Source of the DNA: an uncultured Pseudobdellovibrionaceae bacterium
GTDB taxonomy: Bacteria > Bdellovibrionota > Bdellovibrionia > Bdellovibrionales > Bdellovibrionaceae
Assembly (NCBI GenBank): GCA_964388665.1
Contig: CAYMBJ010000050.1
Location: 4,454 to 28,453 of the forward strand
Length of the DNA stretch: 24,000 bases
Direction of reading: 5' to 3'
Part shown: positions 4,409-24,000 of the stretch, one piece after another
How positions within the stretch are numbered: position 1 is the first letter of the stretch
Layout of the letters: every line of letters begins with the position of its first letter
Position numbers and translations under genes: made by a program
The notes under the pieces: model-generated
What the model was told of the DNA's origin: nothing
The model's database searches: none
The model's input: only the letters and a program-made list of their open reading frames with translations

Positions 4409-5392
4409 TTAGCTCGATATTTCAATTTGATATTGGCTTGGCTGCACACTGAAAATCTTTGCTCGCCCACCAAACACCCAAGGCTTTTGCTGTGGACTAT
4501 GACCAAACGGAAATCCCGAAAAAACTGGAATATCGACCTCCTGCGCAAACCGTTTAAGAACAGGCTTTACGAGAGACTTTTCCTGCCCAGGCTCTTTGCC
4601 GCCAGAAAAATCGCCAAACACCACAGCCACCACCAATTGCCGAAACTTCGGCCACTGTTGCAGCTGAGTTAGCAGGCGATCAATACGGTAGCCTCGCTCC
4701 CCGACATCCTCAAAAAAAAGAATCTGCCGCTCAGCTTTGCGTTGGGGAAAGTAGGGCCCGCCTAGCAAACTCATATAGGTGACGAGATTTCCACCAAGGG
4801 CAACTCCCTCCAGGTGCTTTGTTGCCGTCACCTTGGTCATGATCTTGCGATCAGAGCTGCTCAGAAGTCTCACCTTTGCGGGCTTTGTGGGACTCTGTAT
4901 TGAATCTCGCTGCAAAATGCTCCAGGACTCTTGAACCCATTTTTTTTCCACCCCGTCGGCCGCCAACCTCTCAAGCACAGGCCCGTGCAGTGAGGGCCAG
5001 CGCCACTCTTGCCAAAGGTAAGCACTCAGTGCGGTGACATCACTCATGCCAATCAACCATTTTTTTTGTGATGGCTTTTTGATTTTGTCCAGATAAGGTA
5101 AAAGTCGTTGACTGCCGTATCCACCGCGCAAACACCACACGGCCCGACACTCCGGATTTTCCAGCGCCGCCACCAACTGCTTTGCGCGAATCTCATCACG
5201 ATGAGCATGCAAAAAGTGTCCACCCAAAACAGGCCTGCGGATCTGCACGCGATAGCCTTTGCCTTGCAAAAACTCTGTGGCCCGCAACAGCTGCACTCTG
5301 TCCGCACCAAATCCAGGAGCGATCACTTCAATCAGGTCTCCCCTTTTTAGGGAGGCAGGAGTGAAGGATTTAGAAAGTTTCTTTGAAGTCAT
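4409..5392 (-). CDS. ldcA: LD-carboxypeptidase (muramoyltetrapeptide carboxypeptidase, peptidase S66)
   Basis: 327-aa ORF. It carries GGYGSQRLLPYLD, the nucleophile motif GMSDVTAL, FFEDVGE and the C-terminal GFPFGHSP (His of the Ser-His-Glu triad). First gene of the minus-strand cluster. Confidence 0.85.
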   Translation of the reverse strand: MTSKKLSKSFTPASLKRGDLIEVIAPGFGADRVQLLRATEFLQGKGYRVQIRRPVLGGHFLHAHRDEIRAKQLVAALENPECRAVWCLRGGYGSQRLLPYLDKIKKPSQKKWLIGMSDVTALSAYLWQEWRWPSLHGPVLERLAADGVEKKWVQESWSILQRDSIQSPTKPAKVRLLSSSDRKIMTKVTATKHLEGVALGGNLVTYMSLLGGPYFPQRKAERQILFFEDVGERGYRIDRLLTQLQQWPKFRQLVVAVVFGDFSGGKEPGQEKSLVKPVLKRFAQEVDIPVFSGFPFGHSPQQKPWVFGGRAKIFSVQPSQYQIEISS

Positions 5393-5595
5393 TTAATTGC
5401 AACCTTGATTTCCGCAACTTCCTAGCTACGACCTGGAACGACAGTTCTCTTGACACTATAGCAACAATCTTTGACCCGTCAATCTTTTAGACAGTCGTCA
5501 CGGTCCACAGATTCCTACTGACACTGTCCTCCTTTGGCTTTGATCTTGCAATTTCGAAGATCTGTACAAATTCGCTAATTTTTAAGGAGTGCTCA
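5393..5595. promoter_or_regulatory. divergent intergenic region between ldcA (-) and paralog 1 (+), with a strong Shine-Dalgarno for paralog 1
   Basis: 203-nt non-coding gap between divergently oriented genes. AAGGAG at 5584-5589 lies 6 nt before the ATG at 5596. A TTGACA hexamer is present, but I could not pair it with a convincing -10 at canonical spacing, so no exact promoter is placed. Confidence 0.4.
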
Positions 5596-7053
5596 ATGAC
5601 TTTAAATAACAATGCCCGCCGATTCTTTGTTTCCGTTTTTACTTTAGGAGTCGTTTTTGCGTCTTCGCCAGGACTCGCATTCTCGTTTACTAAAAAGACT
5701 GAAGGATGTCGCCCAGCTGCTAGCAGTGACGACAAGTTGACTACCGATGAAACAATCAATTGTTTTGCAAATGACAAGGTGAAGTTTGCAGTTAAAACTC
5801 CTGACGAAATTACCATAGATGACCTTTCTGCGGAAATGCTTGCAGAAGGACCCAATATGCATGGTTTAACAGACCAAGAGCTCAGCTCAAAAAAGGTTTA
5901 CTGCCGTTATAAGTATCACGAAAAGTCACAAAACAGCCCCAAATTTCGCTGTTTCCGCACTGATTCCAATGGGCGTTTTTTTAACAGCCAAAATGAAATT
6001 GTAACTGAAGCCGTTGAGGCCTTGGATGCTGATAAAAAAATCAATGGAGTCGAATACAAAGAGGGCACTCTTTTAGACATCTCCGGACAACCAATTGCGG
6101 TGGGTTCAGAAATTCAAAGAGGTGACGAAATCAAGGTCAAATACCTTTCTACAAAAGTCAAATCTACTTCAGGCAACAGTTTCGTTCTTGAAGAAGAAAT
6201 TGAAATGCCAAGATACCGCGAAGTTTTCACAGAAGTCGTTGGCACGCGGCTGATGTGGGCGCTTGGTTTTCCTGCTGACAATATCTACCCTGTTGAAAAG
6301 CTCATTTGCTTTGGCTGCAACAATCACCCATTCGAGCAGCTCAAGTCCACAATCAATATGGAAGAAGTACGAAAATCAGCCAATCCTTTTGGTGTAATTA
6401 TCAACTACAATGCCCAATTTACATCGCCAATTATCGAAAGACGATATGAACCAAAAAAAATCGGCGAGAGCTGGGACTTCGACGTCATAACTAAAGACAA
6501 TGTAGTAAAGAATTGGACAGCGGAACAGAAAAACGACTTTGAGGCCATGATCTTGGCAGTCAGCCTGATCAACTATTACAATCCCATTGCACAGCAGAAT
6601 CGTTTGCACTGCGAGAGCAAACCTAAAGACAACCAGTGCGACTATCCAATGGCCATGATTCAGGACGTAGGATCAACCTTGGGTGGCGACCATCCAGGCC
6701 TTTTCAATTCTGGAATTGCGATTCCAGGCCTTATGCAAAACCCTCGTGGAGAGCTCTCGGCCTTTGAGAATGGCAAGATCTTCGCAAATGCAGCCACCTG
6801 TCAACTTGGCCATGCCTTCGGCGAAGTTACCCACATTTCAAACTCAGGCATGTCATCCTTTTTGGCCAGACTCAATGCCGCAGACCTAACAGAAGAAAAG
6901 GTTCGCGCTATCTTTGAGGCTTCACGAATCGTGAATGCTGACCCAGAACTGAGAGACACTTTGGGTGCCAATGTGGTCTTGAACCGCTGGGTGCAAGCCT
7001 TTATGAATCACGTTCAAGAGGTCAAGAGTGCGGGATCTTGTTTGGAACACTAG
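5596..7053 (+). CDS. secreted Cys-containing protein, paralog 1 of a tandem pair; kinase-like motif layout with a degenerate catalytic-loop position
   Basis: 485-aa ORF with a strong RBS and signal peptide MTLNNNARRFFVSVFTLGVVFASSPGLAFS. It shares sequence blocks with the next gene: PKFRC, IKVKY, TRLMWALGFPADNIYPVEKLICFGC, AQQNRLHC, IQDVGSTLGG, AATC. Confidence 0.75.
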   Translation: MTLNNNARRFFVSVFTLGVVFASSPGLAFSFTKKTEGCRPAASSDDKLTTDETINCFANDKVKFAVKTPDEITIDDLSAEMLAEGPNMHGLTDQELSSKKVYCRYKYHEKSQNSPKFRCFRTDSNGRFFNSQNEIVTEAVEALDADKKINGVEYKEGTLLDISGQPIAVGSEIQRGDEIKVKYLSTKVKSTSGNSFVLEEEIEMPRYREVFTEVVGTRLMWALGFPADNIYPVEKLICFGCNNHPFEQLKSTINMEEVRKSANPFGVIINYNAQFTSPIIERRYEPKKIGESWDFDVITKDNVVKNWTAEQKNDFEAMILAVSLINYYNPIAQQNRLHCESKPKDNQCDYPMAMIQDVGSTLGGDHPGLFNSGIAIPGLMQNPRGELSAFENGKIFANAATCQLGHAFGEVTHISNSGMSSFLARLNAADLTEEKVRAIFEASRIVNADPELRDTLGANVVLNRWVQAFMNHVQEVKSAGSCLEH

Positions 7054-7062
7054 CGATAGGGT

Positions 7063-7089
7063 AGGAGCGCTTTCTCTGAAAGCGCTCCT
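7063..7089 (+). terminator. perfect 12-bp stem / 3-nt loop hairpin just after the paralog 1 stop codon
   Basis: AGGAGCGCTTTC-TCT-GAAAGCGCTCCT begins 10 nt after the stop codon at 7051-7053. No U-tract follows (GTCGCGAAG), so it is an atypical intrinsic terminator or an RNA-stabilising hairpin. Confidence 0.4.
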
Positions 7090-7153
7090 GTCGCGAAGAC
7101 GTATCTGCACCTCTATAATTATACAAAAACCTGAATCTTGAAAGGGCCACTTT

Positions 7154-8653
7154 ATGAAAAGATCTTTAATTCTTACATCAATATTTGCCACTGCAAACCT
7201 AATTTCGACTGCAGCAAGTTCCGAAATTCTAATTAACACCTTGGACGAGAGAGCTGAACTTTTGAAACAAGCCGACGTTTGGGACCGTCCTGATTGGATC
7301 GAAAAGGACACTCACAAGTTTTTAGACTCTTACCAACTGTCTAAAAAAGGCGTTGATTCAGCAATACAGACCAATGGTGAATTTATTGAACTGGGTCCTG
7401 ATCGTGACTCTAGCATCGCTAAGGCTCTGAGCGAGGAAAACGTCGAATGCATCTATAACGACGAGCGAACGCAACGAAGCAAAAAGACCTCAGGATTCAC
7501 GCCTAAATTCTATTGCGATTTAAAATACACCAAAACCACAAATGATGGGATTGAAAATAAGACCAAAACTATCAAAATCAAGTATGACAACGGCGAAGCC
7601 TATTCAGAAATGGCTGCAACACGATTGATGTGGGCTCTGGGATTTAAAGCAGACAAAATGTATTCTGTTAAAAAACTGACTTGCCTTGGCTGCCCCGATG
7701 GTAATCCATGGAGGAATCAAGAGACTTACAGCTTGAGTAAATTTGGCGACAACCAAGTTGTTTTTGAAAATGTAGTGGCCGAACAAAAGTTTGACGCTGA
7801 AGAAATTGAGATGAATCCGGCTACCAATATCGCCTACAACGAATCAAAGGGATTTGACATGGGCACACTCTTTAATGGATTTTTGCGCCAAGATATTGAA
7901 CGCCTCCCTCGTGAAGATCAAGACATCGCCATTAAACGCAAAACACAGCGTGAAGCGCTTCGATTGCTTGCAGTGTTTTTGCAACATGGTGACAACAAGA
8001 GTGCTCAACAAAGACTTGCCTGTAAACTGAAAGATGGGAGCGAAGATAAATCAAGCATCACTATCGATGATTGCAAAGAGGGCAAACTCTACGCCTTAAT
8101 TCAAGACGTTGGCGCCACTTTTGGTATAGGATCTTGGACCATTCCTGAAAATCCAATCATGAACTTTTTTACCTCGATCCCCTCGAAAGTGATCCTTGAG
8201 TCAGCAAAAATGAATGCAGATGGCTGGAACCAATCTCCCTTCTGGAATGACGCAGCCACATGCCGTGCAAACTTGAATTCTGCCCACACAGAAAAGATGG
8301 ACGATCCGATCATTTCAGAGGAAGGTCGGCAGTTTTTGGCCACACTATTAAGTGGATTCATCGACGGCAGCAATGGCGAGGAACGACTGACAGCTTTGTT
8401 TACTAAGAGCCGCGCTGATATTCGCATGGCGAGAATTCGCTTAAACGCTGAACTCACCAGAGCATCCCAGGCCAAAGATTTACAAGAGTACTATAAGCTG
8501 ACTCGTGAATATGACCAAAATCTCAAAACACAAACTGCTATTGAACTCGCCAACTGGAAAAATATTTTCCGCCAAAAGGTGGCTGAATTGAAAAATCCAG
8601 TGCCAGAAAATCCAAACTTCTCATGCCCTACCAGCATTCTTGATGCTGAGTGA
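7154..8653 (+). CDS. secreted Cys-containing protein, paralog 2 of the tandem pair; putative PI3/4-kinase-like (type II PI4K-like) fold
   Basis: 499-aa ORF with signal peptide MKRSLILTSIFATANLISTAASS. Its motif order is reminiscent of atypical kinases: IKIKY (Lys strand), EAYSEMAATRLMWALGF (Glu helix), LLAVFLQHGDNKSAQQ (catalytic-loop-like), LIQDVGATFG (DFG-like). A predicted coiled/charged C-terminal tail follows. Confidence 0.75.
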   Translation: MKRSLILTSIFATANLISTAASSEILINTLDERAELLKQADVWDRPDWIEKDTHKFLDSYQLSKKGVDSAIQTNGEFIELGPDRDSSIAKALSEENVECIYNDERTQRSKKTSGFTPKFYCDLKYTKTTNDGIENKTKTIKIKYDNGEAYSEMAATRLMWALGFKADKMYSVKKLTCLGCPDGNPWRNQETYSLSKFGDNQVVFENVVAEQKFDAEEIEMNPATNIAYNESKGFDMGTLFNGFLRQDIERLPREDQDIAIKRKTQREALRLLAVFLQHGDNKSAQQRLACKLKDGSEDKSSITIDDCKEGKLYALIQDVGATFGIGSWTIPENPIMNFFTSIPSKVILESAKMNADGWNQSPFWNDAATCRANLNSAHTEKMDDPIISEEGRQFLATLLSGFIDGSNGEERLTALFTKSRADIRMARIRLNAELTRASQAKDLQEYYKLTREYDQNLKTQTAIELANWKNIFRQKVAELKNPVPENPNFSCPTSILDAE

Positions 8654-8666
8654 ATGGACTTCGGTG

Positions 8667-10193
8667 TCAAACCTCTTTGGCGAATTCGTGCAGATCGGTG
8701 GGGTATTTGCCATCAAAGCAGGCGGCGCAAAAGTCCTGGGAGGATTTTTCCAGGGCTTTGAACATTCCAGCAATGGACAGATATTTTAAACTGTCGGCTT
8801 CGATGAATTTGCAAATCTCTTCGCAGGTGTAGCGTGAAGCAATCAGTTGCGATTTCATGGGAGTATCGACGCCATAGAAGCACGGACCGACCGTGGGTGG
8901 TGCGGCAATGCGAATGTGCACCTCTTTGGCGCCAGCCTGGCGAATCAGTCCCACAATCTTGCGACTGGTGGTCCCTCGCACCAGGGAGTCATCAATCACA
9001 ATCACTCGTTTTCCTTTGAGCACAGAGCTTTGCGGATTGAGCTTGATGCGCACACCGAAATCACGAATGTCTTGGGTGGGCTGAATAAAGGTTCGGCCTA
9101 TGTAATGATTGCGGATGATGCCCAATTCAAAATCGATTCCGCTCTCTTGAGCATAACCAATTGCGGCCGCCACTCCACTGTCGGGGACAGGGATCACCAG
9201 GTCCGCATCCACAGAAAACTCTTTGGCTAGCTGCTTGCCAAAGGCCTTGCGGGCTTCATAAACGCTGCGATCAAACACCAAACTATCAGGCCGCGCAAAA
9301 TAAACGTGTTCAAAGACACAGTGAGCACGTCGCGGTGCTTTTTGAAAGGTCTGCGAGCGCAGACCCTGCTTGTCCACGACCACCAATTCACCAGGCGCCA
9401 CTTCCCGAATGTATTCGGCACCGATGAGATCAAAGGCACAGGTTTCACTGGCAAACACATAGGACTCTTGAGTTTCGCCTTTGGCATCTTCATATTTCAT
9501 TCGGCCCATCACAAGAGGACGAAAACCATAGGGATCGCGCGCCACCACCACTTGAGAATCACTCATCAGCACCATACTGTAGGCACCGTCGAGCCGGGGC
9601 AGAATATCTGCAAGCGCAGTGACAAAATCATCCGAAGGGTGCCGAGAAAGAAAGTGCAGCACCACCTCGGTGTCGGAGCTCCCTTGAAAGATCGCGCCTG
9701 ATTTCTGCAGTTCTTGCTTTAAGGCACGGTAATTGATCAGGTTTCCGTTGTGGGCAACGGCCACAGAACCATTGATCAGATTTGCAGTGAGCGGCTGAGC
9801 ATTGGCGATCAGATTTTGCCCCGTGGTGGAGTAGCGAACATGGCCAATGGCTGCATGACCGCTGATACGGTTGAGGTTGGTTTCATTGAACACTTCAGAA
9901 ACAAGACCCAAGCCCTTGTGGTGCAAATGAGTTCCATCCGCTTGGAGTGTCACCAGACCCGCAGACTCTTGCCCGCGATGCTGCATCGAAAACAGACCGA
10001 GATAAGAAATTTGTGAAGCCTGCGGATGATTCCATATCGCGAACACTCCGCATTCATCTTTCCAACCCTTAGACTCTTTTACCCCGCCAAATATCCCGCT
10101 AGATAGCCCGCCAAATCCGGCGCGAGACTCCCCACCAGGTGCGCCGTAAGATATGCCGATAGATGCTCTCTCGATTTCCGAATTTAGATCCAT
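8667..10193 (-). CDS. purF: amidophosphoribosyltransferase
   Basis: Ntn nucleophile context CGVFAIW, PRPP-binding loop VIVIDDSLVRGTTSRKIV, and Fe-S cysteines (CFYGVD, CAACFDGKYP). Its start overlaps the purL stop by 10 nt. Cys is residue 48, implying a long propeptide or a mis-set start. Confidence 0.93.
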   Translation of the reverse strand: MDLNSEIERASIGISYGAPGGESRAGFGGLSSGIFGGVKESKGWKDECGVFAIWNHPQASQISYLGLFSMQHRGQESAGLVTLQADGTHLHHKGLGLVSEVFNETNLNRISGHAAIGHVRYSTTGQNLIANAQPLTANLINGSVAVAHNGNLINYRALKQELQKSGAIFQGSSDTEVVLHFLSRHPSDDFVTALADILPRLDGAYSMVLMSDSQVVVARDPYGFRPLVMGRMKYEDAKGETQESYVFASETCAFDLIGAEYIREVAPGELVVVDKQGLRSQTFQKAPRRAHCVFEHVYFARPDSLVFDRSVYEARKAFGKQLAKEFSVDADLVIPVPDSGVAAAIGYAQESGIDFELGIIRNHYIGRTFIQPTQDIRDFGVRIKLNPQSSVLKGKRVIVIDDSLVRGTTSRKIVGLIRQAGAKEVHIRIAAPPTVGPCFYGVDTPMKSQLIASRYTCEEICKFIEADSLKYLSIAGMFKALEKSSQDFCAACFDGKYPTDLHEFAKEV

Positions 10194-14087: not shown

Positions 14088-15373
14088 AGATTGATCCTCT
14101 TCACTAATTGTTTAAATGCCTTTTGATGACCTTGACCCGAGAAAATAGAGTCCAATTCGGTTTTCGAAAAGTGCTTGCTCAGCACGCTGTCTTTTAAAAT
14201 CAAATCGCGCATATGATCGCCGCGCCCGAGCGAATGCGCCACTCGCTGCACGTGCTTATAGGCCTCTTCACGCGAGAACCCCTGCTTTACCAAATGCAAC
14301 AGCAGATGTGAGCTAAAGAGCGTGCCCTGTGAGAGTTCCAGGTTTTCAAGCATCTTCTTTTTATTAACATGCAAGCCATCCAAAAGGTCGGCCATGCGGT
14401 GTAAAGCATAGTCTACCACAATAAAAGCATCTGGAAAGATCACCCTCTCAACTGAGGAGTGCGAGATGTCACGCTCGTGCCAGAGAGCAATGTTTTCTAG
14501 CGCCGACAAAAAATAGCCTCGCACCAAGCGCGCAAGCCCGGTGATATTTTCGGCGCTGATGGGATTTTTTTTATGAGGCATGGCCGAGCTGCCCTTTTGA
14601 CCAACCGTAAATCCTTCGACCACTTCACTCACTTCAGATCTCTGCAAATGCCGAAGCTCGACGGCCAAGCGCTCGAGCCCTGCCATCACAAAGCTCAGCG
14701 CACCGATCATTTCGGCATGCCGATCGCGAGGGATCACCTGTGTGGCAACACTCTCTGCCTGCAAACCTAAACGCTTGGCCACTTTTTTCTCTACTTCAGG
14801 AGGCTGACTCGAATAGGTGCCAACCGCACCTGAGAGTTTGCAAATTTTAAAATTATCGAGAGCGAGCTCCAAGCGCCGATGATTGCGTTTGAGCTCCATC
14901 AAGAATCCCGCCATCTTGATCCCGAAACTCGTTGGCTCAGCAAACATGCCGTGGGTTCGCCCTGGGCAAATGGTCGACTCGTGCTTTTTCACCAACTTTG
15001 ACAAGGATCGTTCCAACCGCTGGACCCCGGCCATCAGCAGGTCTGTGGCTTCCCAAACCTGCAAGCTAAAAGCTGTGTCTAGAACATCAGATGAGGTCAT
15101 ACCGAAATGAACAAACTTTCCGTGGGGCCCCACATTCTCTGCAACTGAAGACACAAAGGCAATCACATCATGCTTGGTGATCTTTTCAATCTCTTGAATT
15201 CTTTTTACAGAGAACTTGGCTTTGGCACGGATACTGCGCGCGGCCGCTTTGGGTATGATTCCAAGCTCTGCTTGCGCCAATGCGACTTGAGTTTCTACTT
15301 CTAGCATTTTGCCAAAGCGATGCTCTAAGTCCCAAAGGACTCCCATTTCAGCTCGGGTGTAACGTTCGATCAC
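14084..15373 (-). CDS. purB: adenylosuccinate lyase
   Basis: 429 aa with the fumarate-lyase signature GSSAMPHKKNP and the N-terminal ERYTRAEM typical of PurB. Confidence 0.95.
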   Translation of the reverse strand: MIERYTRAEMGVLWDLEHRFGKMLEVETQVALAQAELGIIPKAAARSIRAKAKFSVKRIQEIEKITKHDVIAFVSSVAENVGPHGKFVHFGMTSSDVLDTAFSLQVWEATDLLMAGVQRLERSLSKLVKKHESTICPGRTHGMFAEPTSFGIKMAGFLMELKRNHRRLELALDNFKICKLSGAVGTYSSQPPEVEKKVAKRLGLQAESVATQVIPRDRHAEMIGALSFVMAGLERLAVELRHLQRSEVSEVVEGFTVGQKGSSAMPHKKNPISAENITGLARLVRGYFLSALENIALWHERDISHSSVERVIFPDAFIVVDYALHRMADLLDGLHVNKKKMLENLELSQGTLFSSHLLLHLVKQGFSREEAYKHVQRVAHSLGRGDHMRDLILKDSVLSKHFSKTELDSIFSGQGHQKAFKQLVKRINL

Positions 15374-16688
15374 GATCTTTTTCCTTCCTCAACCGAATCC
15401 ATCCTGCCAATTCTTCCAAATCTTCATTCTGCACTTGCGCCATGTCTGACCAGGAGTAATAAGACCACTGCTCCGGCGAACTGCCGATGACCATTTTTGC
15501 CAGACGCGGCCGTCCCACCGAATCTTCGCGGTAAACCGGAAATCGTGGTGGCCCAATCTCTTTGTAAGTATGACGAAACTCACGCGGATAGTCTTTAAGT
15601 TGCACGAAATCCACTTTCCCCATCCTATGATTGATGGCCGCAGAGATCTTTTCGCCCAATGCTTTTAAGTAATCAGAGTTGAATCTTTGTACAAAGGGAG
15701 CTTTTGCCCAAATTGCCCAGGTGTGTTGGCTCATTGCTTTTTGCACGATCAGATAATTTTCTCGAGACCAAAACAAATCAGGATCGCCAATAAACACAAA
15801 ATGATCCGGAAATTTATTAAAGTACTCGACGTCTTTCAAAGTGAATTCGTATCGCAACCAGCAAGACTCTGGATCTCGCCCCGTTTGCCCATATAGGGTT
15901 TTGCCCGCCGACTGCGATAAAAAGTAAGTCTCTTCACTGGTGAGCATCCACACCGCGGCCAAAGACTTCGTGAGCCCCACCCACTCGCCCGTGGTTTCAA
16001 TGGCAAAAAAACTCTCGGGATGCGACTTCAAAGCGACGTCTTTAAAAACGCTGTGGCTAGAAACCTGTATGCCATCCTGTTTGAGCATCTCCAGAGCCTT
16101 GGCATAGTCAGAAAGATTAAACTGCCGAAAGGAAAAGCTCTGGCGAATACGTCGCTGTGATTTCTTGTCCCAATCAATCACCCTGCGAAAGCTCATTTCG
16201 CGAGTGCTCCCCCAAATTTCGTTAAAGTACTCAAGCCAGTACTTAGCAAAAAAAGCCGGCTCGGCATTCAAGCTCGTGGTCACGGGCCCGGAGGTGGAGG
16301 CGTGAGCAGACGCGGAGGCCTGCGCTCTTCGATCCGCTTTTCTCCGATTGAAGGGACCGCGTTTATTTTGAATGTCTGCAGTCGAGCGCTCCAGATAGAA
16401 GTTTGCCATGGGCCCCTTCATTTCGTAGGGACCATCTGCAAGCCAGGCACAAATTCCACCGCCCTGTTCAATGATCTGCCCATCCAACTCCAATCGAGAT
16501 TTCCATTCTGGATGAGATTCTAATCCGGCAATTCCAAAAGGACCTTCAAAATCTTCTGTGGACCAATTACCAAGATCATGAGTAAGATCCAAAAAACCGA
16601 CGCTGAGACCCAACTTTCGAGCCTGCAACGCCAAATGCTGACCTCTGCCAAAAGCACTTACAATAAAGAGATCAAAATCTGTTTTCAT
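15348..16688 (-). CDS. uncharacterised protein embedded in the pur operon; N-terminal degenerate Rossmann-like (dinucleotide-binding-like) beta-alpha-beta
   Basis: 446-aa ORF with no competing ORF. Its 3' end overlaps the purB start by 26 nt. The N-terminus DLFIVSAFGRGQHLALQARKLGLSVGFLD resembles a degenerate GxGxxG fold ending in an acidic residue. It has a low-complexity basic/Ala-Ser segment (RRKADRRAQASASAHASTSG). I recognise no purine-pathway enzyme motif. Confidence 0.7.
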   Translation of the reverse strand: MKTDFDLFIVSAFGRGQHLALQARKLGLSVGFLDLTHDLGNWSTEDFEGPFGIAGLESHPEWKSRLELDGQIIEQGGGICAWLADGPYEMKGPMANFYLERSTADIQNKRGPFNRRKADRRAQASASAHASTSGPVTTSLNAEPAFFAKYWLEYFNEIWGSTREMSFRRVIDWDKKSQRRIRQSFSFRQFNLSDYAKALEMLKQDGIQVSSHSVFKDVALKSHPESFFAIETTGEWVGLTKSLAAVWMLTSEETYFLSQSAGKTLYGQTGRDPESCWLRYEFTLKDVEYFNKFPDHFVFIGDPDLFWSRENYLIVQKAMSQHTWAIWAKAPFVQRFNSDYLKALGEKISAAINHRMGKVDFVQLKDYPREFRHTYKEIGPPRFPVYREDSVGRPRLAKMVIGSSPEQWSYYSWSDMAQVQNEDLEELAGWIRLRKEKDRDRTLHPS

Positions 16689-19431: not shown

Positions 19432-20826
19432 TTAAAAAACAAATCCAGCTTTGAACATAGTACTTTTCACTTCCAGATAAGAGTTATCAGTAACTTCTAT
19501 ATCATCCGATTCAACAACATCTTTTTGAATTGAGTGGCGGGTGATGTAGTGAGCAAGTTCCAAATTGAATTTCTGTTTAATGGTCACTCCCGCACCAAGC
19601 TGCAGACCAACTCCGGCACCAATCACCTTTTGTGATTGGTCAAGGTACTGAATATTGGGTCCACTCAAAAAATAGACTGCGTTCTGATTGCCAACATCCA
19701 GAGAAAAAGTTCCATTGCCCTCGCCTCTAAATAAAGTGTAGTCGGAAGTGTCTTTGTCGCGATTCGATTCCTTTGCGATGCTAAGGCCAGCTTGCCAGCC
19801 AAAGCCCTGCATGGGTACTCTTTCATACTGAGCATTGAGTGCTGTGTATTCCGGCGACCTATCTGATGAGCCCTTAATGGTTTGCAAGTTGCCAGTTGAC
19901 TTCCACTTCACGGTGACACTTAAATCCGTCTCTGCTTTGAAAAAACCGAGACCGATCGAAACACCTTTTTTTGCAAATGCACGAACGACATTGCGCGAGC
20001 TAGAAGATGAACTCCCGCCATCTTGAGCGGCATTTTGGAAATCAATACTTTTGATTCTTGCTTCCAATAGGTGCAGTAGATCCTCTCTTGTCATCTTTTT
20101 ATTTGCTGGCCATCTTTTGCCTTCACGCATTTTTGCTTCAAGATAGGCCAATTTGACCGGAATATTTTGGCCCAGATACCAGAGGAGATCATAAAAATCC
20201 CGCCCCTTAATTCGCTGCTTCCATTTGCGAAACAAGATTATATGCATTTTGCCGCTAAACAGATAAGAGGGTTTTAAAACTCTTATGGATGCTGTGATTG
20301 GTGGAAATAAAACTTTAACTTCTGTTTCAAATCCAAGCGGCGGCGTTATATCGACTTCAAATTTAATGCTCAGCTCTTTATTGTTTTGAATCTTTTCTGC
20401 AAACTTTTGTCCTGCCTCAATTCGCAAAAAATGCATTTTTGTATTTGCCTTTAGGAATGCGGATTCAACGTTAGTGGACTTGATTTTGTCGACCTCTTCG
20501 ATATCAACTTCGAGCCCAAATGATTCCAATGTGTTGGCAACGGCGCTAAAATATGTTTTCAAAGAGAAATCAGACTGTTTCGCCAGGAGTGTAAAGTCCA
20601 AATCTTCTGAAAATCTAGGGAGTCCATAGAAAATTCTTAAAGCCGTGCCGCCATAAAAGGCGGCTTTATCAAAAAACTTTCCGCGGGCTAGCCCCGCTAA
20701 CGTGATTTCTTGGATAATCTCTTTGAGTGCATTTTCGATTTCCAGAGGAGTCTTTGGTTGATATTTCGCGAGCAAGGAATCTATGGCTCCACTCAAGTTG
20801 ATTCTTCCTTTCGGTTGATGATCCAT
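19432..20826 (-). CDS. AbiEii-like nucleotidyltransferase toxin (type IV TA/abortive infection) fused to a C-terminal OMP-like beta-barrel domain
   Basis: Residues 1-269: FYGGTALRIFYGLPRFSEDLDFTL (NTase G[GS]...DxD motif) and KGRDFYDLLW, typical of AbiEii/DUF1814. Residues 270-277: GGSSSSSS linker (nt 19996-20019). Residues 278-464: amphipathic beta-strand periodicity ending in MFKAGFVF. Its start overlaps the AbiEi-like gene by 34 nt. Confidence 0.8.
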   Translation of the reverse strand: MDHQPKGRINLSGAIDSLLAKYQPKTPLEIENALKEIIQEITLAGLARGKFFDKAAFYGGTALRIFYGLPRFSEDLDFTLLAKQSDFSLKTYFSAVANTLESFGLEVDIEEVDKIKSTNVESAFLKANTKMHFLRIEAGQKFAEKIQNNKELSIKFEVDITPPLGFETEVKVLFPPITASIRVLKPSYLFSGKMHIILFRKWKQRIKGRDFYDLLWYLGQNIPVKLAYLEAKMREGKRWPANKKMTREDLLHLLEARIKSIDFQNAAQDGGSSSSSSRNVVRAFAKKGVSIGLGFFKAETDLSVTVKWKSTGNLQTIKGSSDRSPEYTALNAQYERVPMQGFGWQAGLSIAKESNRDKDTSDYTLFRGEGNGTFSLDVGNQNAVYFLSGPNIQYLDQSQKVIGAGVGLQLGAGVTIKQKFNLELAHYITRHSIQKDVVESDDIEVTDNSYLEVKSTMFKAGFVF

Positions 20827-21467
20827 TTAAGTATGCGATGTTCTTTTGAGTTCCGGTGATAGGAGGGACGAATCTCTTCTAAGTCTTTTACACTAATCAG
20901 ATCAAAAAATTGCGTCATCTCAAGACGGAGATCGTCTTCTAAAAACTCATGAATGTCCTTTTCGCTCTTGATGACCAAACTCTTGGTTTTGAGATTGATA
21001 TAATCAAGGAGCGCTTTTTCGGGTCTGGCGATAAAAAAACTGTCTCCGGCCTCATTGGTGCGAGAGAGGTACCCAATGGGATACCTGTTTTTGTTGATGT
21101 GACTGTATGAAAATGGCGCAAGCGGAGTTGTGAAAGTTTTCGAGCGCAATGTTGTCACAGAGGTCACTGTGGTGACTCGATCCATGATGAGTCCGTAATA
21201 TTGAAGAGCCCACTCCATCGAGACATAAGAGGGAAAATACAATGAGTTTGCAATCACATCATAGGGAGTGCTTTTCAGAAAGCTAGATTTTAGATTGAAG
21301 TATTGACCTCTCTTGATTGGCTGCAAATAGCCCTTGGCCTTAAGATCAAATATCTTTTTCTTTGGACTCTTGTAAGCGGATTGAGTCACATTGAAACCGC
21401 CACTGAGAAAGATGGCAACCAAAGGCTTCTTTCTTACTCTACATAATTGTAAATGGAAATCTTGCAA
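20793..21467 (-). CDS. AbiEi-like antitoxin/transcriptional regulator (type IV TA system)
   Basis: 224 aa. N-terminal wHTH-like ...DLKAKGYLQPIKRGQYF followed by PSYVSMEWALQYYGLI, the characteristic AbiEi pattern. It lies directly upstream of, and overlaps, the AbiEii-like gene. Confidence 0.75.
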   Translation of the reverse strand: MQDFHLQLCRVRKKPLVAIFLSGGFNVTQSAYKSPKKKIFDLKAKGYLQPIKRGQYFNLKSSFLKSTPYDVIANSLYFPSYVSMEWALQYYGLIMDRVTTVTSVTTLRSKTFTTPLAPFSYSHINKNRYPIGYLSRTNEAGDSFFIARPEKALLDYINLKTKSLVIKSEKDIHEFLEDDLRLEMTQFFDLISVKDLEEIRPSYHRNSKEHRILKWIINRKEEST

Positions 21468-23326
21468 CGACAGACACGAGCGAAGGATGCTATCTCTTCA
21501 CTACTTACAGGCGCCTTTCTCAGGCGCAAAGTCGCCCTCCCATCTCCATATTTGTCAGCAAAAGTCTCGCCGAGCCTTTCGCATGCACTGCAAATTGGCA
21601 TCAGATCAGACAAATCAAATCGACTCATGGGATTTCCCCGCAGATCAAGATCAAATTTCTTCCGGGAAACAATTTTTTCTGCCACTTCAGAGCTCAAATA
21701 GGGAATCTCTTCAATCAGATTGTCAGTCACATTCACTTTTTCACTTCCTATAAAGGCCAACTCCGCAAACTCTTCTGCGGAAAGCTCGGATATTCTGTTA
21801 TTGGCGAGATTCACAAAAAGCTCTTGCAAACGTACTGCCACCAAGTCCTGAATGCTCAATCGAGAGATCTGATTTTGGTCCAAATACAGATGCTTTAGAT
21901 TCGGCGCCAAAGCCAAACTGGGAAACTCCGAAATCTGATTTTGCCCAAGATCCAACAAAGACAATGAATTGAGCAGAGAAGGACTTAGTGCGCCGTGAAT
22001 CTGGTTGTTTCTTAAACCGATTGCTTCCAAATTAGGAGTCTTGTCAAAAAACTCTGGAAAGATATCGAGTCTATTCTCATTTGCCACAAACAGTCTCAAA
22101 AACTCCAAGACCTTACTCCCAGTGAATTTGATTTCTGTCAGGGCATTCCCAGCCACATCAAAAGCGCGAAGGTTGGGAGTTTGGTCAAACAGATCTCCCT
22201 GAAGACTCGCAATTCGATTGAAGGAAAAATCCAAATATTCCAGGCGCAGGAGCCCATAAAGGCTGTCTTTAAAAATATGATCAATGCGATTTCCAGAAAA
22301 GGTCATGACTGTGCGAGACTCAAAGGCCGTAAGATCCCCAGGGAGAAGCGTCGTAAGTCCAGCATTGACAAATGGACCTTCAATTTGACGGGCAGACTCA
22401 AGGTAGTGCTCAAGATAAAACCTCTCTATATCCTTCCAACTTGACGAAAAAAAGCCACTAAGAATGCTGCCCCTGGTCTCAAGTCTCCCGCCCTGCATGC
22501 CGGCCGCAAGATCACCCTCTGTCAGCAATTCACAGGGGGCCTTTAGCGCCAATACAATGGACTCTTGAATTCCAGGAGTTCGCTGACAGACAGGTACGAA
22601 CTTTCGCGGATGCAAACTGAGTCCCAAATTCTTGAGTGAGTTCTGAAAATCCACCTTGGATAGGGTCTCTGCTTGTGCCGAATGGAGAAAGCGATTGATC
22701 CGTCGCAAGGCCTCGGGGTCTTCGACAAAATCCCAAAGCCATTCATGGACAATCAAAAATGAGTATTGCAATGGCCTATAACGCAGTTGCCTCAACACTT
22801 CAGGATCGTAATTGTAGATGGTCGCGGACTCATTTTTTTGGCGAATGACCGCCTGAAGGACCTCAAGATGATTCTTTTCAGCTCCCTTTTTGTAACAATT
22901 GGGCGGCAGTTTTCGAATGGCCTGCTCATCTTCGAGGTCTACGAGCCCATAAATGGCCTCAAGCCAAAGGCGTTCCTGCAAATAAATCTGCTCAGGTGGA
23001 ACTGCATCTTCTCCTGGAATTCTGGCCAAAAAGTCCCTAAAAAAGCGCTCAAGATCAGGATATTTTTGCTCAAAGAGCCCCAAAAGACGCTCCCTTTGGT
23101 CCCCCCAGGTGGCCAACTCTTGAAGATCTGAGTTATCTTCTCGAAGGGTCATTAGGTAATCAAAGGAGTAGTACCCCGCATAGCTAGAATTGTCCGAGAC
23201 TTCGCAGCGCACGGCATCTCCACCATTCCCAACGGTGACTCCCGCAATTGCTGACTTACAGTGCAGCACAGACAAAAATAGCAGCGTCCAAATTTTAAAA
23301 ATCCCAATCTGATTCGATATTTTCAT
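21434..23326 (-). CDS. secreted leucine-rich-repeat protein with an unassigned N-terminal domain and a Cys-containing C-terminal tail
   Basis: Signal peptide MKISNQIGIFKIWTLLFLSVLHCKSAIAG from the ATG at 23326; the ORF-track start at 23404 adds 26 non-signal residues. There are about 9-10 LRRs (LxxLxLxxNxI type: LEYLDFSFNRIASL, LRAFDVAGNALTEI, LEAIGLRNNQIHG, LSLLDLGQNQISEF, LKHLYLDQNQISRL, LFVNLANNRISEL ...) at nt ~21620-22372. The stop overlaps the AbiEi-like start by 34 nt. Confidence 0.8.
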   Translation of the reverse strand: MKISNQIGIFKIWTLLFLSVLHCKSAIAGVTVGNGGDAVRCEVSDNSSYAGYYSFDYLMTLREDNSDLQELATWGDQRERLLGLFEQKYPDLERFFRDFLARIPGEDAVPPEQIYLQERLWLEAIYGLVDLEDEQAIRKLPPNCYKKGAEKNHLEVLQAVIRQKNESATIYNYDPEVLRQLRYRPLQYSFLIVHEWLWDFVEDPEALRRINRFLHSAQAETLSKVDFQNSLKNLGLSLHPRKFVPVCQRTPGIQESIVLALKAPCELLTEGDLAAGMQGGRLETRGSILSGFFSSSWKDIERFYLEHYLESARQIEGPFVNAGLTTLLPGDLTAFESRTVMTFSGNRIDHIFKDSLYGLLRLEYLDFSFNRIASLQGDLFDQTPNLRAFDVAGNALTEIKFTGSKVLEFLRLFVANENRLDIFPEFFDKTPNLEAIGLRNNQIHGALSPSLLNSLSLLDLGQNQISEFPSLALAPNLKHLYLDQNQISRLSIQDLVAVRLQELFVNLANNRISELSAEEFAELAFIGSEKVNVTDNLIEEIPYLSSEVAEKIVSRKKFDLDLRGNPMSRFDLSDLMPICSACERLGETFADKYGDGRATLRLRKAPVSSEEIASFARVCRCKISIYNYVE

Positions 23327-23463
23327 GATTTTAACAGAAACCCTTTTCTCCCATGCAAGACGACATGGAGAGCATCGAATAGGCTCCCGCTGCGGCTCTG
23401 TCAAGTTGGCAGATTTTCGTGATTATTTTCTGTTTTCTATGAGCGAACAGAGATAGATCCTGA

Positions 23464-24000
23464 TTAGCCTGCCCTTTGGTTTTCGCTCTTGCGGGAGGCG
23501 GCGATGTCATCAAGATGCTCTTTGAAGCTTGGATAGGCGCGCGTCACCTGCTCAAATTTCTTTTTTGGCAGGCGGTACAAATCACAGTATGTAATGGCAA
23601 CTGCCGTCGCGTTTCGATCTTGGTCAGTGATCAGAGCCATCTCGCCAAAAAAAGACCCTTCGCCGAGAGTGACAATGGTTTGTCCGTCACGCGCAACAAT
23701 TGCAACCTCGCCGCTGTGGACAAAGTACATGGCATCGCCCTGATCATCGATGCGAAAGATCTTTTCTGTGGGTACAAAGATCTTCGGCTCAAGTTCATGC
23801 ATAATGTCTTCGAGCAATTCCTCACTGGCACCACAAAGCAGAGGTACTTTTTGGATGATCTTTCTGTTTAAAAAGAGAAAAATTTCAGACTGCATTTTGT
23901 TGGGCAGCTCGCGAATGATCGTGCGCTGATTGTAGCCTTTTGAATTTGTGTCCGATTTCACCGATCTGACCACCCCGGTTTCACCACATTTGACCACCCA
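23464..24000 (-). CDS. cyclic-nucleotide-binding domain protein, C-terminal part (probably a cNMP-gated channel); partial at the window edge
   Basis: CNBD hallmarks: GEGSFFGEMALITDQDRNATAVA and a preceding C-linker-like LPNKMQSEIFLFLNRKIIQKVPLL. The frame stays open to nt 24000. The GTG at 23997 is only the first start-like codon in view, so the N-terminus lies outside the window. Confidence 0.8.
   Translation of the reverse strand, partial: WVVKCGETGVVRSVKSDTNSKGYNQRTIIRELPNKMQSEIFLFLNRKIIQKVPLLCGASEELLEDIMHELEPKIFVPTEKIFRIDDQGDAMYFVHSGEVAIVARDGQTIVTLGEGSFFGEMALITDQDRNATAVAITYCDLYRLPKKKFEQVTRAYPSFKEHLDDIAASRKSENQRAG

What the first reader, a model, noticed from the sequence alone, without database searches (positions are those of the whole stretch)
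5596..8653. Tandem secreted, cysteine-containing paralogs with an atypical kinase-like (type II PI4K-like) motif order
Seen in sequence: two adjacent plus-strand genes of 485 and 499 aa, each with a signal peptide, share collinear blocks. These are PKF[RY]C, IK[VI]KY, TRLMWALGF[PK]AD..Y.V.KL.C.GC, A[VS].L....AQQ.RL.C, IQDVG[SA]T[LF]G and AATC. They are otherwise divergent. In paralog 2 the order resembles PI3/4-kinase-like enzymes: IKIKY (Lys strand, nt 7571-7585), then EAYSEMAATRLMWALGF (Glu helix), then LLAVFLQHGDNKSAQQ (nt 7964-8011), then LIQDVGATFG (nt 8099-8125). For comparison, my recollection of type II PI4K is FKPK..EEPY, SE.A..L, DRGNDNWL and IDNGLAFP. Inference: this is a secreted, disulfide-stabilised atypical kinase/transferase family. 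The motif resemblance is by eye and weak (Gln where kinases have the catalytic-loop Asn), so the fold call is a hypothesis. My spot GC counts here are also low: 40% at line 6001 and 30% at line 7501.
Basis: partly seen in the sequence, partly recalled or inferred. Interest (0 to 1): 0.68.

Follow-up and report, generated by a model that had tools for sequence, protein, structure and literature searches.

The report
Exported bacterial kinase-like enzyme and pseudoenzyme pair
Two neighbouring genes encode exported, cysteine-rich proteins with a protein-kinase-like fold from a large unnamed bacterial family: one keeps every catalytic residue, the other has lost the catalytic loop, and the two types are almost always encoded side by side, which points to phosphorylation chemistry outside the bacterial cytoplasm.

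Summary
ORFs 5596-7053 (par1, 485 aa) and 7154-8653 (par2, 499 aa) are real paralogs (BLASTP E 4e-16) with signal-peptide-like N-termini, eight shared cysteines and the motif blocks at the stated coordinates.

The kinase-like reading is supported. No Pfam, NCBIfam, PADLOC or PDB-sequence hit exists. An AlphaFold model of a compact homolog (pLDDT 90) matches only kinases in Foldseek: H. pylori CtkA (E 2e-5, prob 1.0), then CotH, type II PI4K-alpha, HipA and Fam20C. Across 284 members the conserved residues are the beta3 Lys, a Glu, an HxDxKxx[Q/N] catalytic loop and an invariant DxG, each in the canonical secondary-structure position.

New findings:
- The family is large (about 2,070 clusters at 50% identity), mostly Acidobacteriota and Bdellovibrionota. 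About 87% carry a signal peptide or lipobox, and some are fused to PAP2 or subtilase domains.
- par1 belongs to a monophyletic subfamily that replaced HxDxK with [YF]xN and gained an NPRG motif.
- In 44 of 48 evaluable metagenome loci a par1-type gene sits next to a canonical member.
- In this window the pair is a low-GC insertion between purF and an LD-carboxypeptidase gene that directly abut in related genomes.

Best reading: an extracytoplasmic phosphotransferase plus a pseudoenzyme partner. Substrate and phosphate donor are unknown.

The parts
5393..8666 (.). Inserted segment carrying the pair, between the LD-carboxypeptidase gene (4409-5392, -) and purF (8667-10193, -)
   Evidence: In Bdellovibrionota loci L167 and L168 purF is directly followed by the Peptidase_S66 gene. 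Here 3.27 kb of lower-GC DNA on the opposite strand lies between them. No flanking repeats were found.
5596..7053 (+). par1: 485-aa exported kinase-like protein of the 'par1-type' subfamily with a degenerate catalytic loop
   Evidence: ORF; paralog of par2; 15 homologs; the subfamily is monophyletic; subfamily invariants.
5596..5679 (+). par1 signal-peptide-like N-terminus (residues 1-28, ...SSPGLA|F)
   Evidence: RR n-region and a 12-residue hydrophobic core, Kyte-Doolittle 2.5. Heuristic only.
6130..6144 (+). par1 beta3-strand motif IKVKY (retained Lys)
6244..6279 (+). par1 alphaC-helix block TRLMWALGFPAD
   Evidence: This is the most conserved block of the family.
6571..6603 (+). par1 degenerate catalytic loop NYYNPIAQQNR: His, Asp and Lys of HxDxK are lost, and Asn329 is invariant in the subfamily
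6658..6684 (+). par1 DxG (DFG-equivalent) motif IQDVGSTLG, retained
6739..6750 (+). par1-type-specific invariant NPRG motif
7063..7089 (+). Perfect 12-bp hairpin just after the par1 stop codon (no U-tract); a TATAAT-like box follows before par2
   Evidence: I13; fold -26 kcal/mol, z -3.2; sequence. Its function is inferred only.
7154..8653 (+). par2: 499-aa exported kinase-like protein with a complete catalytic motif set
   Evidence: ORF; 96 homologs; AF2 model pLDDT 84.5, pTM 0.87; Foldseek top hits are HipA and PI3K.
7154..7216 (+). par2 signal-peptide-like N-terminus (residues 1-21, ...STAA|S)
   Evidence: Heuristic only.
7493..7516 (+). par2 G-x-T-P-K-F-x-C loop between beta1 and beta2 (candidate phosphate-binding loop; the Lys is invariant across both subfamilies)
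   Evidence: The role is inferred.
7571..7585 (+). par2 beta3 strand IKIKY with K143
   Evidence: K143 is conserved in 94% of 284 members and lies at the end of strand E132-143 in the model.
7592..7645 (+). par2 alphaC helix GEAYSEMAATRLMWALGF (E148, E152, R157)
   Evidence: Helix H147-162 in the model. E148 and R157 are invariant in A1.
7985..8011 (+). par2 catalytic loop HGDNKSAQQ (H278, D280, K282, Q285)
   Evidence: It lies between helix H253-276 and strand E286-291.
8099..8125 (+). par2 DxG (DFG-equivalent) motif IQDVGATFG (D318, G320)
   Evidence: D318 is present in 279 of 279 aligned members and directly follows strand E311-316.

Best explanation
[quoted passage not shown] The family is structurally nearest to the CtkA / HipA / type II PI4K / CotH group.

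par2 carries a full phosphotransfer site: beta3 Lys143, Glu148 on the alphaC helix, catalytic loop His278-x-Asp280-x-Lys282-x-x-Gln285, and metal-binding Asp318-x-Gly320. It is most likely an active phosphotransferase working in the periplasm, on the cell surface or outside the cell.

par1 belongs to an old sister subfamily. It keeps the fold, the Lys, the Glu and the DxG Asp, but has replaced HxDxK with N-Y-Y-N and gained its own invariant residues (NPRG and a fifth cysteine pair). It is almost always encoded beside a canonical member. It therefore most likely acts as an obligate non-phosphotransferring partner of par2, either regulatory or substrate-presenting, in the way the pseudokinase Fam20A serves Fam20C.

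The substrate is unknown. Fusions of canonical members to periplasm-facing PAP2 lipid-phosphate phosphatases point to a phosphorylated envelope lipid or glycolipid.

Shown: paralogy, fold, motif conservation, export signals, pairing, and insertion into the pur/ldcA cluster. Inferred: catalysis, heterodimer formation, substrate class, and the phosphate donor.
For: Fold: the P0004 model (pLDDT 90.1) matches CtkA at E 2.4e-5, prob 1.00, TMt 0.49, and all top-50 PDB hits are kinases. BFVD hits are phage and giant-virus kinase or PI3/4K domains. The par2 model's top hits are HipA and PI3K.

Motifs sit in canonical secondary-structure positions and are conserved across 284 members. Position 285 is only ever Q or N.

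Export: 196 of 226 members have N-terminal hydrophobic leaders and 49 have lipobox-like sites. Eight cysteines are about 98% conserved. One member has an N-terminal subtilase fusion. The PAP2 fusions have a signal peptide, two TM segments and then intact C1/C2/C3 motifs, which places both domains on the periplasmic side.

Pairing: par1-type and par2-type genes are adjacent in L049, L061, L067, L074, L078 and L085, and in 44 of 48 evaluable metagenome loci. The par1-type clade is monophyletic and includes window par1. It is under its own purifying selection, with 37 invariant columns in 15 sequences at 27-38% identity to par1.
Against: No enzymatic data exist for any member. ATP is not known to be available in the periplasm, so the donor is unexplained. 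Sequence-profile methods give no link to any kinase family: Pfam and NCBIfam at E<=10, PDB profile search, and hhalign against E. coli HipA at prob 0.06. The fold call therefore rests on predicted structures. TM-scores to known kinases are modest (0.4-0.5). Spatial proximity of the catalytic residues and the cysteine pairing could not be measured. Physical interaction between par1 and par2 is untested, and some par1-type genes (L086, the P0247 contig, 4 metagenome loci) lack an adjacent partner. par1 and par2 are separated by a strong hairpin and may be transcribed separately.
Confidence: 0.55

Rival explanations
1. Secreted effector or toxin kinases. The proteins are exported to act inside other cells (prey of this Bdellovibrionota organism, or competitors), where ATP is available, rather than on the producer's own envelope. 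The chemistry would be the same as in the best explanation, but the site of action and the biological role would differ.
For: The nearest solved fold is CtkA, a translocated H. pylori effector kinase, and HipA toxins also rank high (PMC5536186). BFVD matches are PKL domains inside phage polyvalent proteins annotated as ADP-ribosyltransferase or MuF. The closest par2 homolog, P0002, sits among ADP-ribosyl exotoxin, TGase-elicitor and lectin genes. The window organism is a Bdellovibrionota lineage, and the pair is a low-GC insertion. This reading also removes the periplasmic ATP problem.
Against: Most members come from Acidobacteriota, which are not known as predators. Many are lipoproteins, which would stay tethered to the producer's membranes. 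The PAP2 fusions anchor the domain in the producer's own inner membrane. No immunity-like gene or secretion-system gene is linked. No PADLOC or toxin-family hit was found.
Confidence: 0.2
2. The kinase scaffold is used for non-kinase chemistry. The family would use the PKL fold for another nucleotide- or phosphate-dependent transfer (AMPylation as in SelO, glutamylation as in SidJ, or phosphotransfer from a lipid pyrophosphate), and par1-type proteins would be active enzymes with an altered site rather than pseudoenzymes.
For: There are unusual invariant residues with no counterpart in standard kinases: Gln at the Asn position in 62% of members, invariant R157, and QQ/QN after the loop. par1-type proteins have strongly conserved replacement residues (YxN, QNR, NPRG, invariant D357), which looks like a remodelled site rather than a decayed one. 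Association with PAP2, a family that includes phosphotransferases using undecaprenyl pyrophosphate (own knowledge: LpxT), would provide a donor that does not depend on periplasmic ATP.
Against: The full canonical set of K, E, HxDxKxxN/Q and DxG is what phosphotransferases keep. About a third of members have the canonical Asn. Nothing here positively indicates an inverted nucleotide pose or any other chemistry.
Confidence: 0.15
3. Non-catalytic binding or structural envelope proteins: both proteins are pseudoenzymes that only bind a ligand or partner.
For: No activity has been shown. Periplasmic ATP is scarce. par1 clearly lacks catalytic residues.
Against: Near-invariance of every catalytic residue in par2-type proteins across roughly 30%-identical sequences from several phyla is hard to explain without catalysis.
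Confidence: 0.05
4. Cytoplasmic proteins whose cysteines bind zinc, so that the hydrophobic N-termini are not export signals.
For: A CxGC motif and eight cysteines could form two Zn sites. No dedicated signal-peptide predictor was run.
Against: 87% of full-length members have leader-like N-termini and many have lipoboxes. One member is fused to a secreted subtilase. The PAP2 fusion topology places the domain outside the cytoplasm.
Confidence: 0.03

Closest known systems
CtkA (JHP0940), Helicobacter pylori cell-translocating Ser/Thr kinase (PDB 3AKJ/3AKK/3AKL)
   Same: It is the best structural match to the family model (E 2.4e-5, prob 1.00, TMq 0.41, TMt 0.49). It is a bacterial, atypical PKL-fold kinase that leaves the producing cell.
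   Different: There is no detectable sequence similarity. CtkA is encoded on the tfs3 ICE and depends on a type IV secretion system and a C-terminal signal (PMC5536186). The family here has N-terminal Sec or lipoprotein signals, eight conserved cysteines and extra N- and C-terminal elements.
Type II phosphatidylinositol 4-kinase alpha (PI4K2A; PDB 4HNE/4HND/4PLA)
   Same: It is among the top structural matches (E 1.3e-3, prob 0.95). The motif order is similar: Lys strand, a short Glu-containing helix directly followed by beta4, catalytic loop, then D-x-G. It is a membrane-associated lipid kinase, which fits the PAP2 fusions.
   Different: There is no PF00454 match. PI4K2A is a cytosolic, palmitoylated eukaryotic enzyme with no signal peptide or disulfides.
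HipA / HipT toxin kinases
   Same: They give structural matches for both models. The G-x-x-x-K loop before beta2 resembles the HipA P-loop (own knowledge; not tested here).
   Different: hhalign of the family profile against E. coli HipA finds nothing (prob 0.06), and there is no HipA_C Pfam hit. HipA is a cytoplasmic toxin with a HipB antitoxin, and no such partner is present here.
Fam20C / Fam20A secretory-pathway kinase and pseudokinase pair; CotH spore-coat kinases
   Same: Fam20C (4KQB) and CotH (5JD9) are among the structural matches. Fam20 proteins are signal-peptide-bearing, disulfide-bonded kinases that act outside the cytosol, and the Fam20A pseudokinase partners the active Fam20C (own knowledge). 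That is the same logic as the par2-type / par1-type pair.
   Different: There is no Pfam Fam20C or CotH match. Those are eukaryotic Golgi proteins (Fam20) or proteins assembled in the mother-cell cytoplasm (CotH). Heterodimerisation here is only inferred from gene adjacency.
SEAE1, a PIK-like bacterial PKL family described in a 2026 preprint (bioRxiv 10.64898/2026.09.18.752743)
   Same: It is a newly described bacterial PKL family whose nearest structures are lipid kinases, with only a weak link to PF00454. In Segetibacter it sits next to a PAP2 phosphatase.
   Different: SEAE1 is reported as non-secreted and mainly found in Bacteroidota and Verrucomicrobiota. Its residues (K140, R146, D216, N221, D241, D243) have different spacing, and no conserved cysteines are mentioned. 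Its sequence could not be obtained, so identity with this family is unlikely but not formally excluded.

Membership tests
Protein kinase-like (PKL) superfamily | Bilobal kinase fold: N-lobe beta-sheet plus alphaC helix, and a helical C-lobe | tested here: met
   AF2 models have pLDDT 84.5 and 90.1. All top-50 Foldseek PDB hits are kinases, with the best at E 2.4e-5 and prob 1.00. This rests on predicted structures only.
Protein kinase-like (PKL) superfamily | Conserved Lys at the end of beta3 and an acidic residue on alphaC | tested here: met
   K143 is conserved in 94% and E148 in 93% of 284 members. They sit at the end of the strand and the start of the helix in the models. par1 retains both.
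Protein kinase-like (PKL) superfamily | Catalytic loop with Asp base and Asn (HRDxKxxN-like) | tested here: met
   par2 reads HGDNKSAQQ. Family-wide, H is 86%, D 92%, K 87%, and position 285 is Q 62% / N 36%. par1 does not meet this feature: it reads NYYNPIAQQN.
Protein kinase-like (PKL) superfamily | Metal-binding Asp of the DFG motif after beta8 | tested here: met
   D318 is present in 279 of 279 aligned members and G320 in 278. Both par1 and par2 have it.
Protein kinase-like (PKL) superfamily | Nucleotide binding and phosphotransfer activity | not testable with these tools
   Biochemistry is required.
PI3/PI4-kinase family including type II PI4K (Pfam PF00454) | Match to the PI3_PI4_kinase profile | tested here: not met
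   No Pfam hit at E<=10 for par1, par2 or five homologs.
PI3/PI4-kinase family including type II PI4K (Pfam PF00454) | Structural similarity of the catalytic domain | tested here: inconclusive
   PI4KII-alpha matches at E 1.3e-3, prob 0.95, TM 0.32. PI3K and VPS34 match at E 0.01-0.3. These rank below CtkA.
HipA family (Pfam HipA_C) | Profile match to HipA | tested here: not met
   No Pfam hit. hhalign of A2 against E. coli HipA gives prob 0.06. Only structural similarity exists (E 3.6e-3).
CtkA-like kinases | Sequence homology to CtkA and a T4SS-type C-terminal secretion signal | tested here: not met
   PDB sequence and profile searches found no CtkA match. The proteins here carry N-terminal Sec-type leaders instead.
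Fam20 / CotH secreted-kinase families | Profile match to Pfam Fam20C or CotH | tested here: not met
   No Pfam hit. Structural matches are only at E 1e-3 to 1e-2.
Sec-exported / lipoprotein envelope proteins | N-terminal signal peptide or lipobox | tested here: met
   Hydrophobicity and regex heuristics give 196 of 226 members with leader-like N-termini and 49 with a lipobox. par1 and par2 leaders are shown. No dedicated predictor or experiment was available.
Kinase / pseudokinase partner systems (Fam20A-Fam20C-like) | A catalytically degenerate paralog that physically partners the active enzyme | tested here: inconclusive
   The degenerate loop and its conservation are shown. Gene adjacency holds in 44 of 48 evaluable loci. 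Physical interaction was not tested.

The most novel reading that the evidence does not exclude
Bacteria possess a dedicated extracytoplasmic phosphorylation system. A Sec- or lipoprotein-exported, disulfide-locked kinase works as a heterodimer with a pseudokinase paralog, making a prokaryotic counterpart of Fam20C/Fam20A. It modifies envelope lipids, glycans or proteins in the periplasm, possibly drawing phosphate from a lipid pyrophosphate through PAP2-type partners rather than from ATP.
Probability: 0.2. Interest if true: 0.88.

Novelty: new variant of a known kind. Interest (0 to 1): 0.7.

Why it matters
Kinase-fold enzymes that work outside the cytosol are well established in animals (Fam20C, VLK, POMK). 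To my knowledge, and in the papers I could search, none is established in the bacterial periplasm, where ATP is not expected. The only comparable report I found is a different, non-secreted PIK-like family.

Here a family of roughly two thousand 50%-identity clusters has every catalytic residue intact. It carries signal peptides or lipoboxes, has four conserved cysteine pairs, and is sometimes fused to a periplasm-facing lipid-phosphate phosphatase. It has no Pfam or NCBIfam model and no name.

If the proteins are active, they raise a concrete and testable question: what is the phosphate donor and what is the substrate in the envelope of abundant soil phyla (Acidobacteriota) and of predatory Bdellovibrionota? 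The conserved active/degenerate gene pair also offers a simple bacterial system for studying how pseudokinases partner kinases. If instead the proteins are delivered effectors, they would be a new toxin or effector kinase class.

Tried and rejected
- Pfam, NCBIfam and PADLOC scans of par1, par2 and several homologs gave no meaningful hit, even at E<=10. The single ZapA_metallo hit (E 0.08, 11.9 bits against a cutoff of 940) is noise.
- PDB sequence search with par2 and with the family profile found nothing apart from a chance dextransucrase hit at E 0.13.
- The first Foldseek run, using the par2 model itself, gave no hit at E<=1e-3 (best was HipA at 4.8e-3, TM about 0.2), probably because of par2's long insertions. 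A compact homolog was modelled instead and gave significant hits.
- hhalign of the family profile against a single E. coli HipA sequence gave prob 0.06. This test is uninformative with a one-sequence template.
- The exact-sequence contig look-up for par2 found nothing on record.
- I searched for conserved operon partners. Neighbourhoods of P0043, P0002, P0077, P0245, P0247 and P0249 share nothing except the paralog. A third gene conserved in acidobacterial pair loci has no Pfam hit and no homolog in the window.
- The idea that par1 is a recently duplicated, decaying copy is rejected. par1-type proteins form an old monophyletic clade with their own invariant residues.
- A search for target-site duplications or terminal inverted repeats around the insertion found none.
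- I tried to obtain the SEAE1 sequence for a direct comparison, but no supplements are held.
- An early literature search built around 'Bdellovibrio' was premature and gave nothing relevant. Searches for periplasmic or secreted bacterial kinase-like families found no description of this family.

Full report
**1. The observation**

The window has two adjacent plus-strand ORFs: 5596..7053 (485 aa, 'par1') and 7154..8653 (499 aa, 'par2'). They are genuine paralogs. BLASTP gives E 4e-16 with 29% identity over about 290 residues. Their most conserved block is still 71% identical over 104 nt of DNA.

Both proteins start with a basic n-region, a hydrophobic core and a small-residue c-region. Eight cysteines align between them, and par1 has two more. 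The low GC spot counts are correct. The genes are 43-44% GC, against 49-52% for their neighbours.

**2. No named family**

Neither protein, nor any of five homologs tested, matches any Pfam, NCBIfam or PADLOC model, even at E<=10. Sequence and profile searches of all PDB chains are empty.

The family is nonetheless large. par2 has 96 homologs at E<=1e-3 in the 90%-clustered database, all labelled 'hypothetical'. A profile of 56 members finds 2,070 representatives of 50%-identity clusters, 678 of them below 1e-30.

In species-representative genomes, 290 stretches encode a relative. The best 80 come almost entirely from MAGs of Acidobacteriota, especially Vicinamibacterales. The closest are from Bdellovibrionales / Pseudobdellovibrionaceae, and there are single cases from Labilithrix and Binatia.

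**3. The fold**

The AlphaFold2 model of par2 is confident (pLDDT 84.5, pTM 0.87). Its Foldseek hits are weak: HipA at E 4.8e-3, then about 50 PI3K entries. I attribute the weakness to par2's long insertions.

I therefore modelled a compact 360-aa homolog, P0004 (34% identical to par2), with a 102-sequence alignment. This model has pLDDT 90.1 and pTM 0.89. Foldseek against the PDB now gives seven hits at E<=1e-3. All seven are the Helicobacter pylori translocated Ser/Thr kinase CtkA (best E 2.4e-5, prob 1.00, TMt 0.49). After these come MK2, CotH, type II PI4K-alpha (E 1.3e-3, prob 0.95), HipA, ATM, Fam20C, VPS34 and HipT. All 50 listed hits are kinases.

Against viral models, the matches are kinase or PI3/4K-like domains of phage polyvalent proteins and giant-virus kinases. 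The family therefore has a protein-kinase-like fold, nearest to the CtkA / HipA / PI4K / CotH group of atypical kinases. This rests on predicted structures. hhalign against a single HipA sequence found nothing, and a proper HHpred run remains to be done.

**4. The active site**

The conserved motifs fall where a kinase needs them:
- A G-x-[TS]-P-K-F loop lies between beta1 and beta2.
- [VI]K[VI]K ends beta3.
- G-E-x-Y-x-E...TRLMWALGF forms the alphaC helix.
- HxDxKxx[QN]Q lies between the alphaE-like helix and the next strand.
- QDxGxTFG directly follows the following strand.

Across 284 aligned members (par2 numbering), conservation is:

| Residue | Conservation |
|---|---|
| K143 | 94% |
| E148 | 93% |
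| H278 | 86% |
| D280 | 92% |
| K282 | 87% |
| Position 285 | Q 62%, N 36% |
| D318 | 279 of 279 |
| G320 | 278 of 279 |
| The eight cysteines | about 98% |

Bdellovibrionales members read H-x-D-L-K-x-x-N, essentially the eukaryotic-type HRDLKPxN loop. I could not measure distances between these residues because model coordinates are not exposed.

**5. Location**

Of 226 members with a full N-terminus, 196 have a leader-like hydrophobic segment and 49 have a lipobox-like site. Most of the rest look like truncated gene calls.

One member has an N-terminal subtilase. Four members (P0056, P0119, P0134, P0150) have a C-terminal PAP2 domain. In the three fusions with an intact N-terminus (P0056, P0119, P0150), a signal peptide precedes the kinase-like domain. 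In all four, two hydrophobic segments then follow, and then intact PAP2 C1/C2/C3 motifs. This puts the kinase-like domain and the PAP2 active site on the same, periplasmic side.

Together with the invariant cysteines, this supports an extracytoplasmic, disulfide-bonded protein. No SignalP run or experiment backs this yet.

**6. par1 is not just a divergent copy**

par1 retains the beta3 Lys, the Glu and the DxG Asp, but its catalytic loop reads N-Y-Y-N-P-I-A-Q-Q-N. Its 15 database homologs and the relatives in fetched loci share this [YF]-x-N replacement of H-x-D-x-K. They also share two extra N-terminal cysteines and an invariant NPRG motif, and they have 37 invariant columns at only 27-38% identity to par1. 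In a neighbour-joining tree, the 38 par1-type sequences, including window par1, form a clade with no canonical member inside.

These par1-type genes almost always lie next to a canonical (par2-type) gene:
- They are in tandem in L049, L061, L067, L074 and L078, which come from Terriglobia, other Acidobacteriota and Binatia.
- They are divergent in L085. There the par1-type protein is window par1's nearest relative, and its neighbour is window par2's second nearest.
- A metagenome scan seeded with the par1-type alignment kept 79 loci with a par1-type gene. Of these, 44 have an adjacent same-strand canonical gene, 31 contigs are too short to tell, and only 4 have room on both sides and lack one.

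Canonical members, by contrast, are mostly solitary. This is the pattern expected of an obligate, catalytically altered partner.

**7. Genomic setting**

PurL's best matches are only 58-61% identical, and the named ones are Bdellovibrionaceae / Bdellovibrionota MAGs. The window is therefore from a deep Bdellovibrionota lineage.

In two such genomes, the order purM-purN-(unknown)-purB-purC-purS-purQ-purL-purF-Peptidase_S66-beta-lactamase-Mur ligase is conserved, with purF abutting the S66 gene. In the window, the same genes flank the pair. The pair lies on the opposite strand with lower GC, so it is an acquired 3.3-kb insertion. No flanking repeats were found.

A perfect 12-bp hairpin (-26 kcal/mol, z -3.2) follows par1. 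Other neighbourhoods share no further genes. The exception is a Pfam-less gene of about 314 aa, divergent from the pair in 44 acidobacterial loci, which has no homolog in the window.

**8. Mechanism**

Most likely (about 0.55), par2 is an exported phosphotransferase and par1 is its non-phosphotransferring partner, analogous to Fam20C/Fam20A. They would act on an envelope substrate. The PAP2 fusions hint at a phosphorylated lipid or glycolipid.

What is shown: paralogy, fold, motif conservation, export signals, pairing and insertion. What is inferred: catalysis, complex formation, substrate and donor. The main difficulty is the source of ATP outside the cytoplasm.

The rivals are:
- A delivered effector or toxin kinase acting in prey or competitor cells (0.2). 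This is favoured by the similarity to CtkA, HipA and phage polyvalent proteins, by the toxin-rich neighbourhood of P0002, and by the predatory lineage. It is disfavoured by the lipoprotein and PAP2-anchored forms and by the dominance of Acidobacteriota.
- Non-kinase chemistry on the kinase scaffold, with par1-type proteins as remodelled enzymes (0.15).
- Purely non-catalytic proteins (0.05).
- Cytoplasmic zinc proteins (0.03).

**9. Comparison with what is known**

The family works like, and folds like, atypical kinases of the CtkA / HipA / type II PI4K / CotH / Fam20 group. It fails the profile-membership test for each of them. It differs from all bacterial ones in having Sec or lipoprotein export and conserved disulfide cysteines.

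A 2026 preprint describes SEAE1, another PIK-like bacterial family found next to a PAP2 gene. SEAE1 is reported as non-secreted, mainly from Bacteroidota, and with different residue spacing.

I found no description of the present family in the searchable literature. That does not prove there is none.

**10. Verdict**

The feature is a new variant of a known kind: an unnamed, exported PKL family with a conserved active/degenerate gene pair. Interest is 0.70.

Noticed in passing
window 15348-16688 (-): A 445-aa ORF with no Pfam hit lies inside the purine operon, between purN and purB. A Pfam-less gene of 427-428 aa occupies the same position in two other Bdellovibrionota genomes (29% identity, E 2e-49 to L167:4842-6125). 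It is a conserved unknown in a purine-biosynthesis operon.
   Followed up: partly
window 19432-21467 (-): An AbiEii nucleotidyltransferase toxin gene (PF08843) overlaps a 224-aa Pfam-less ORF that may be its antitoxin. Both lie in the lowest-GC stretch of the window (40-43%).
   Followed up: no
window 21434-23404 (-): A 655-aa leucine-rich-repeat protein (LRR_8, LRR_4) sits next to the AbiE-like module, followed by a cNMP-binding protein at 23464-23997.
   Followed up: no
window 7063-7089 (+): A perfect 12-bp inverted repeat with a 3-nt loop lies ten bases after the par1 stop codon (-26 kcal/mol, z -3.2). It has no U-tract, and a TATAAT-like box follows before par2. It may separate or stabilise the two transcripts.
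   Followed up: partly
L105:1286-2227 (-) and 43 other loci: In acidobacterial loci, a gene of about 314 aa lies divergently upstream of the canonical/degenerate kinase-like pair. It has no signal peptide, no Pfam hit, and starts MLFVTLHGGKPE. It could be a third module component. It has no homolog in the window.
   Followed up: partly
L085:7456-8604 (+): The closest par1 homolog (P0245) is followed by a DUF2252 gene (PF10009, E 9e-8), which also gives weak hits to kinase-type families (EcKL, APH). That locus therefore encodes three kinase-like proteins in a row.
   Followed up: partly
L082:3296-7822: The closest par2 homolog (P0002) sits beside genes for an ADP-ribosylating exotoxin (PF03496), a TGase_elicitor protein (PF16683) and a B_lectin protein. 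This looks like a cluster of secreted effectors.
   Followed up: no
P0056, P0119, P0134, P0150; P0118: Family members occur fused to a C-terminal PAP2 lipid-phosphate phosphatase with intact catalytic motifs, or to an N-terminal subtilase. P0105, P0180, P0190, P0191 and P0209 carry large extra regions with no Pfam hit.
   Followed up: partly
BFVD hits to model m5c31ee66a402: The family model matches domains inside phage proteins of about 770-1,480 aa that are either unnamed or annotated as ADP-ribosyltransferase, portal or MuF head-morphogenesis proteins (best E 3e-6). This suggests related kinase-like modules in phage polyvalent proteins.
   Followed up: no
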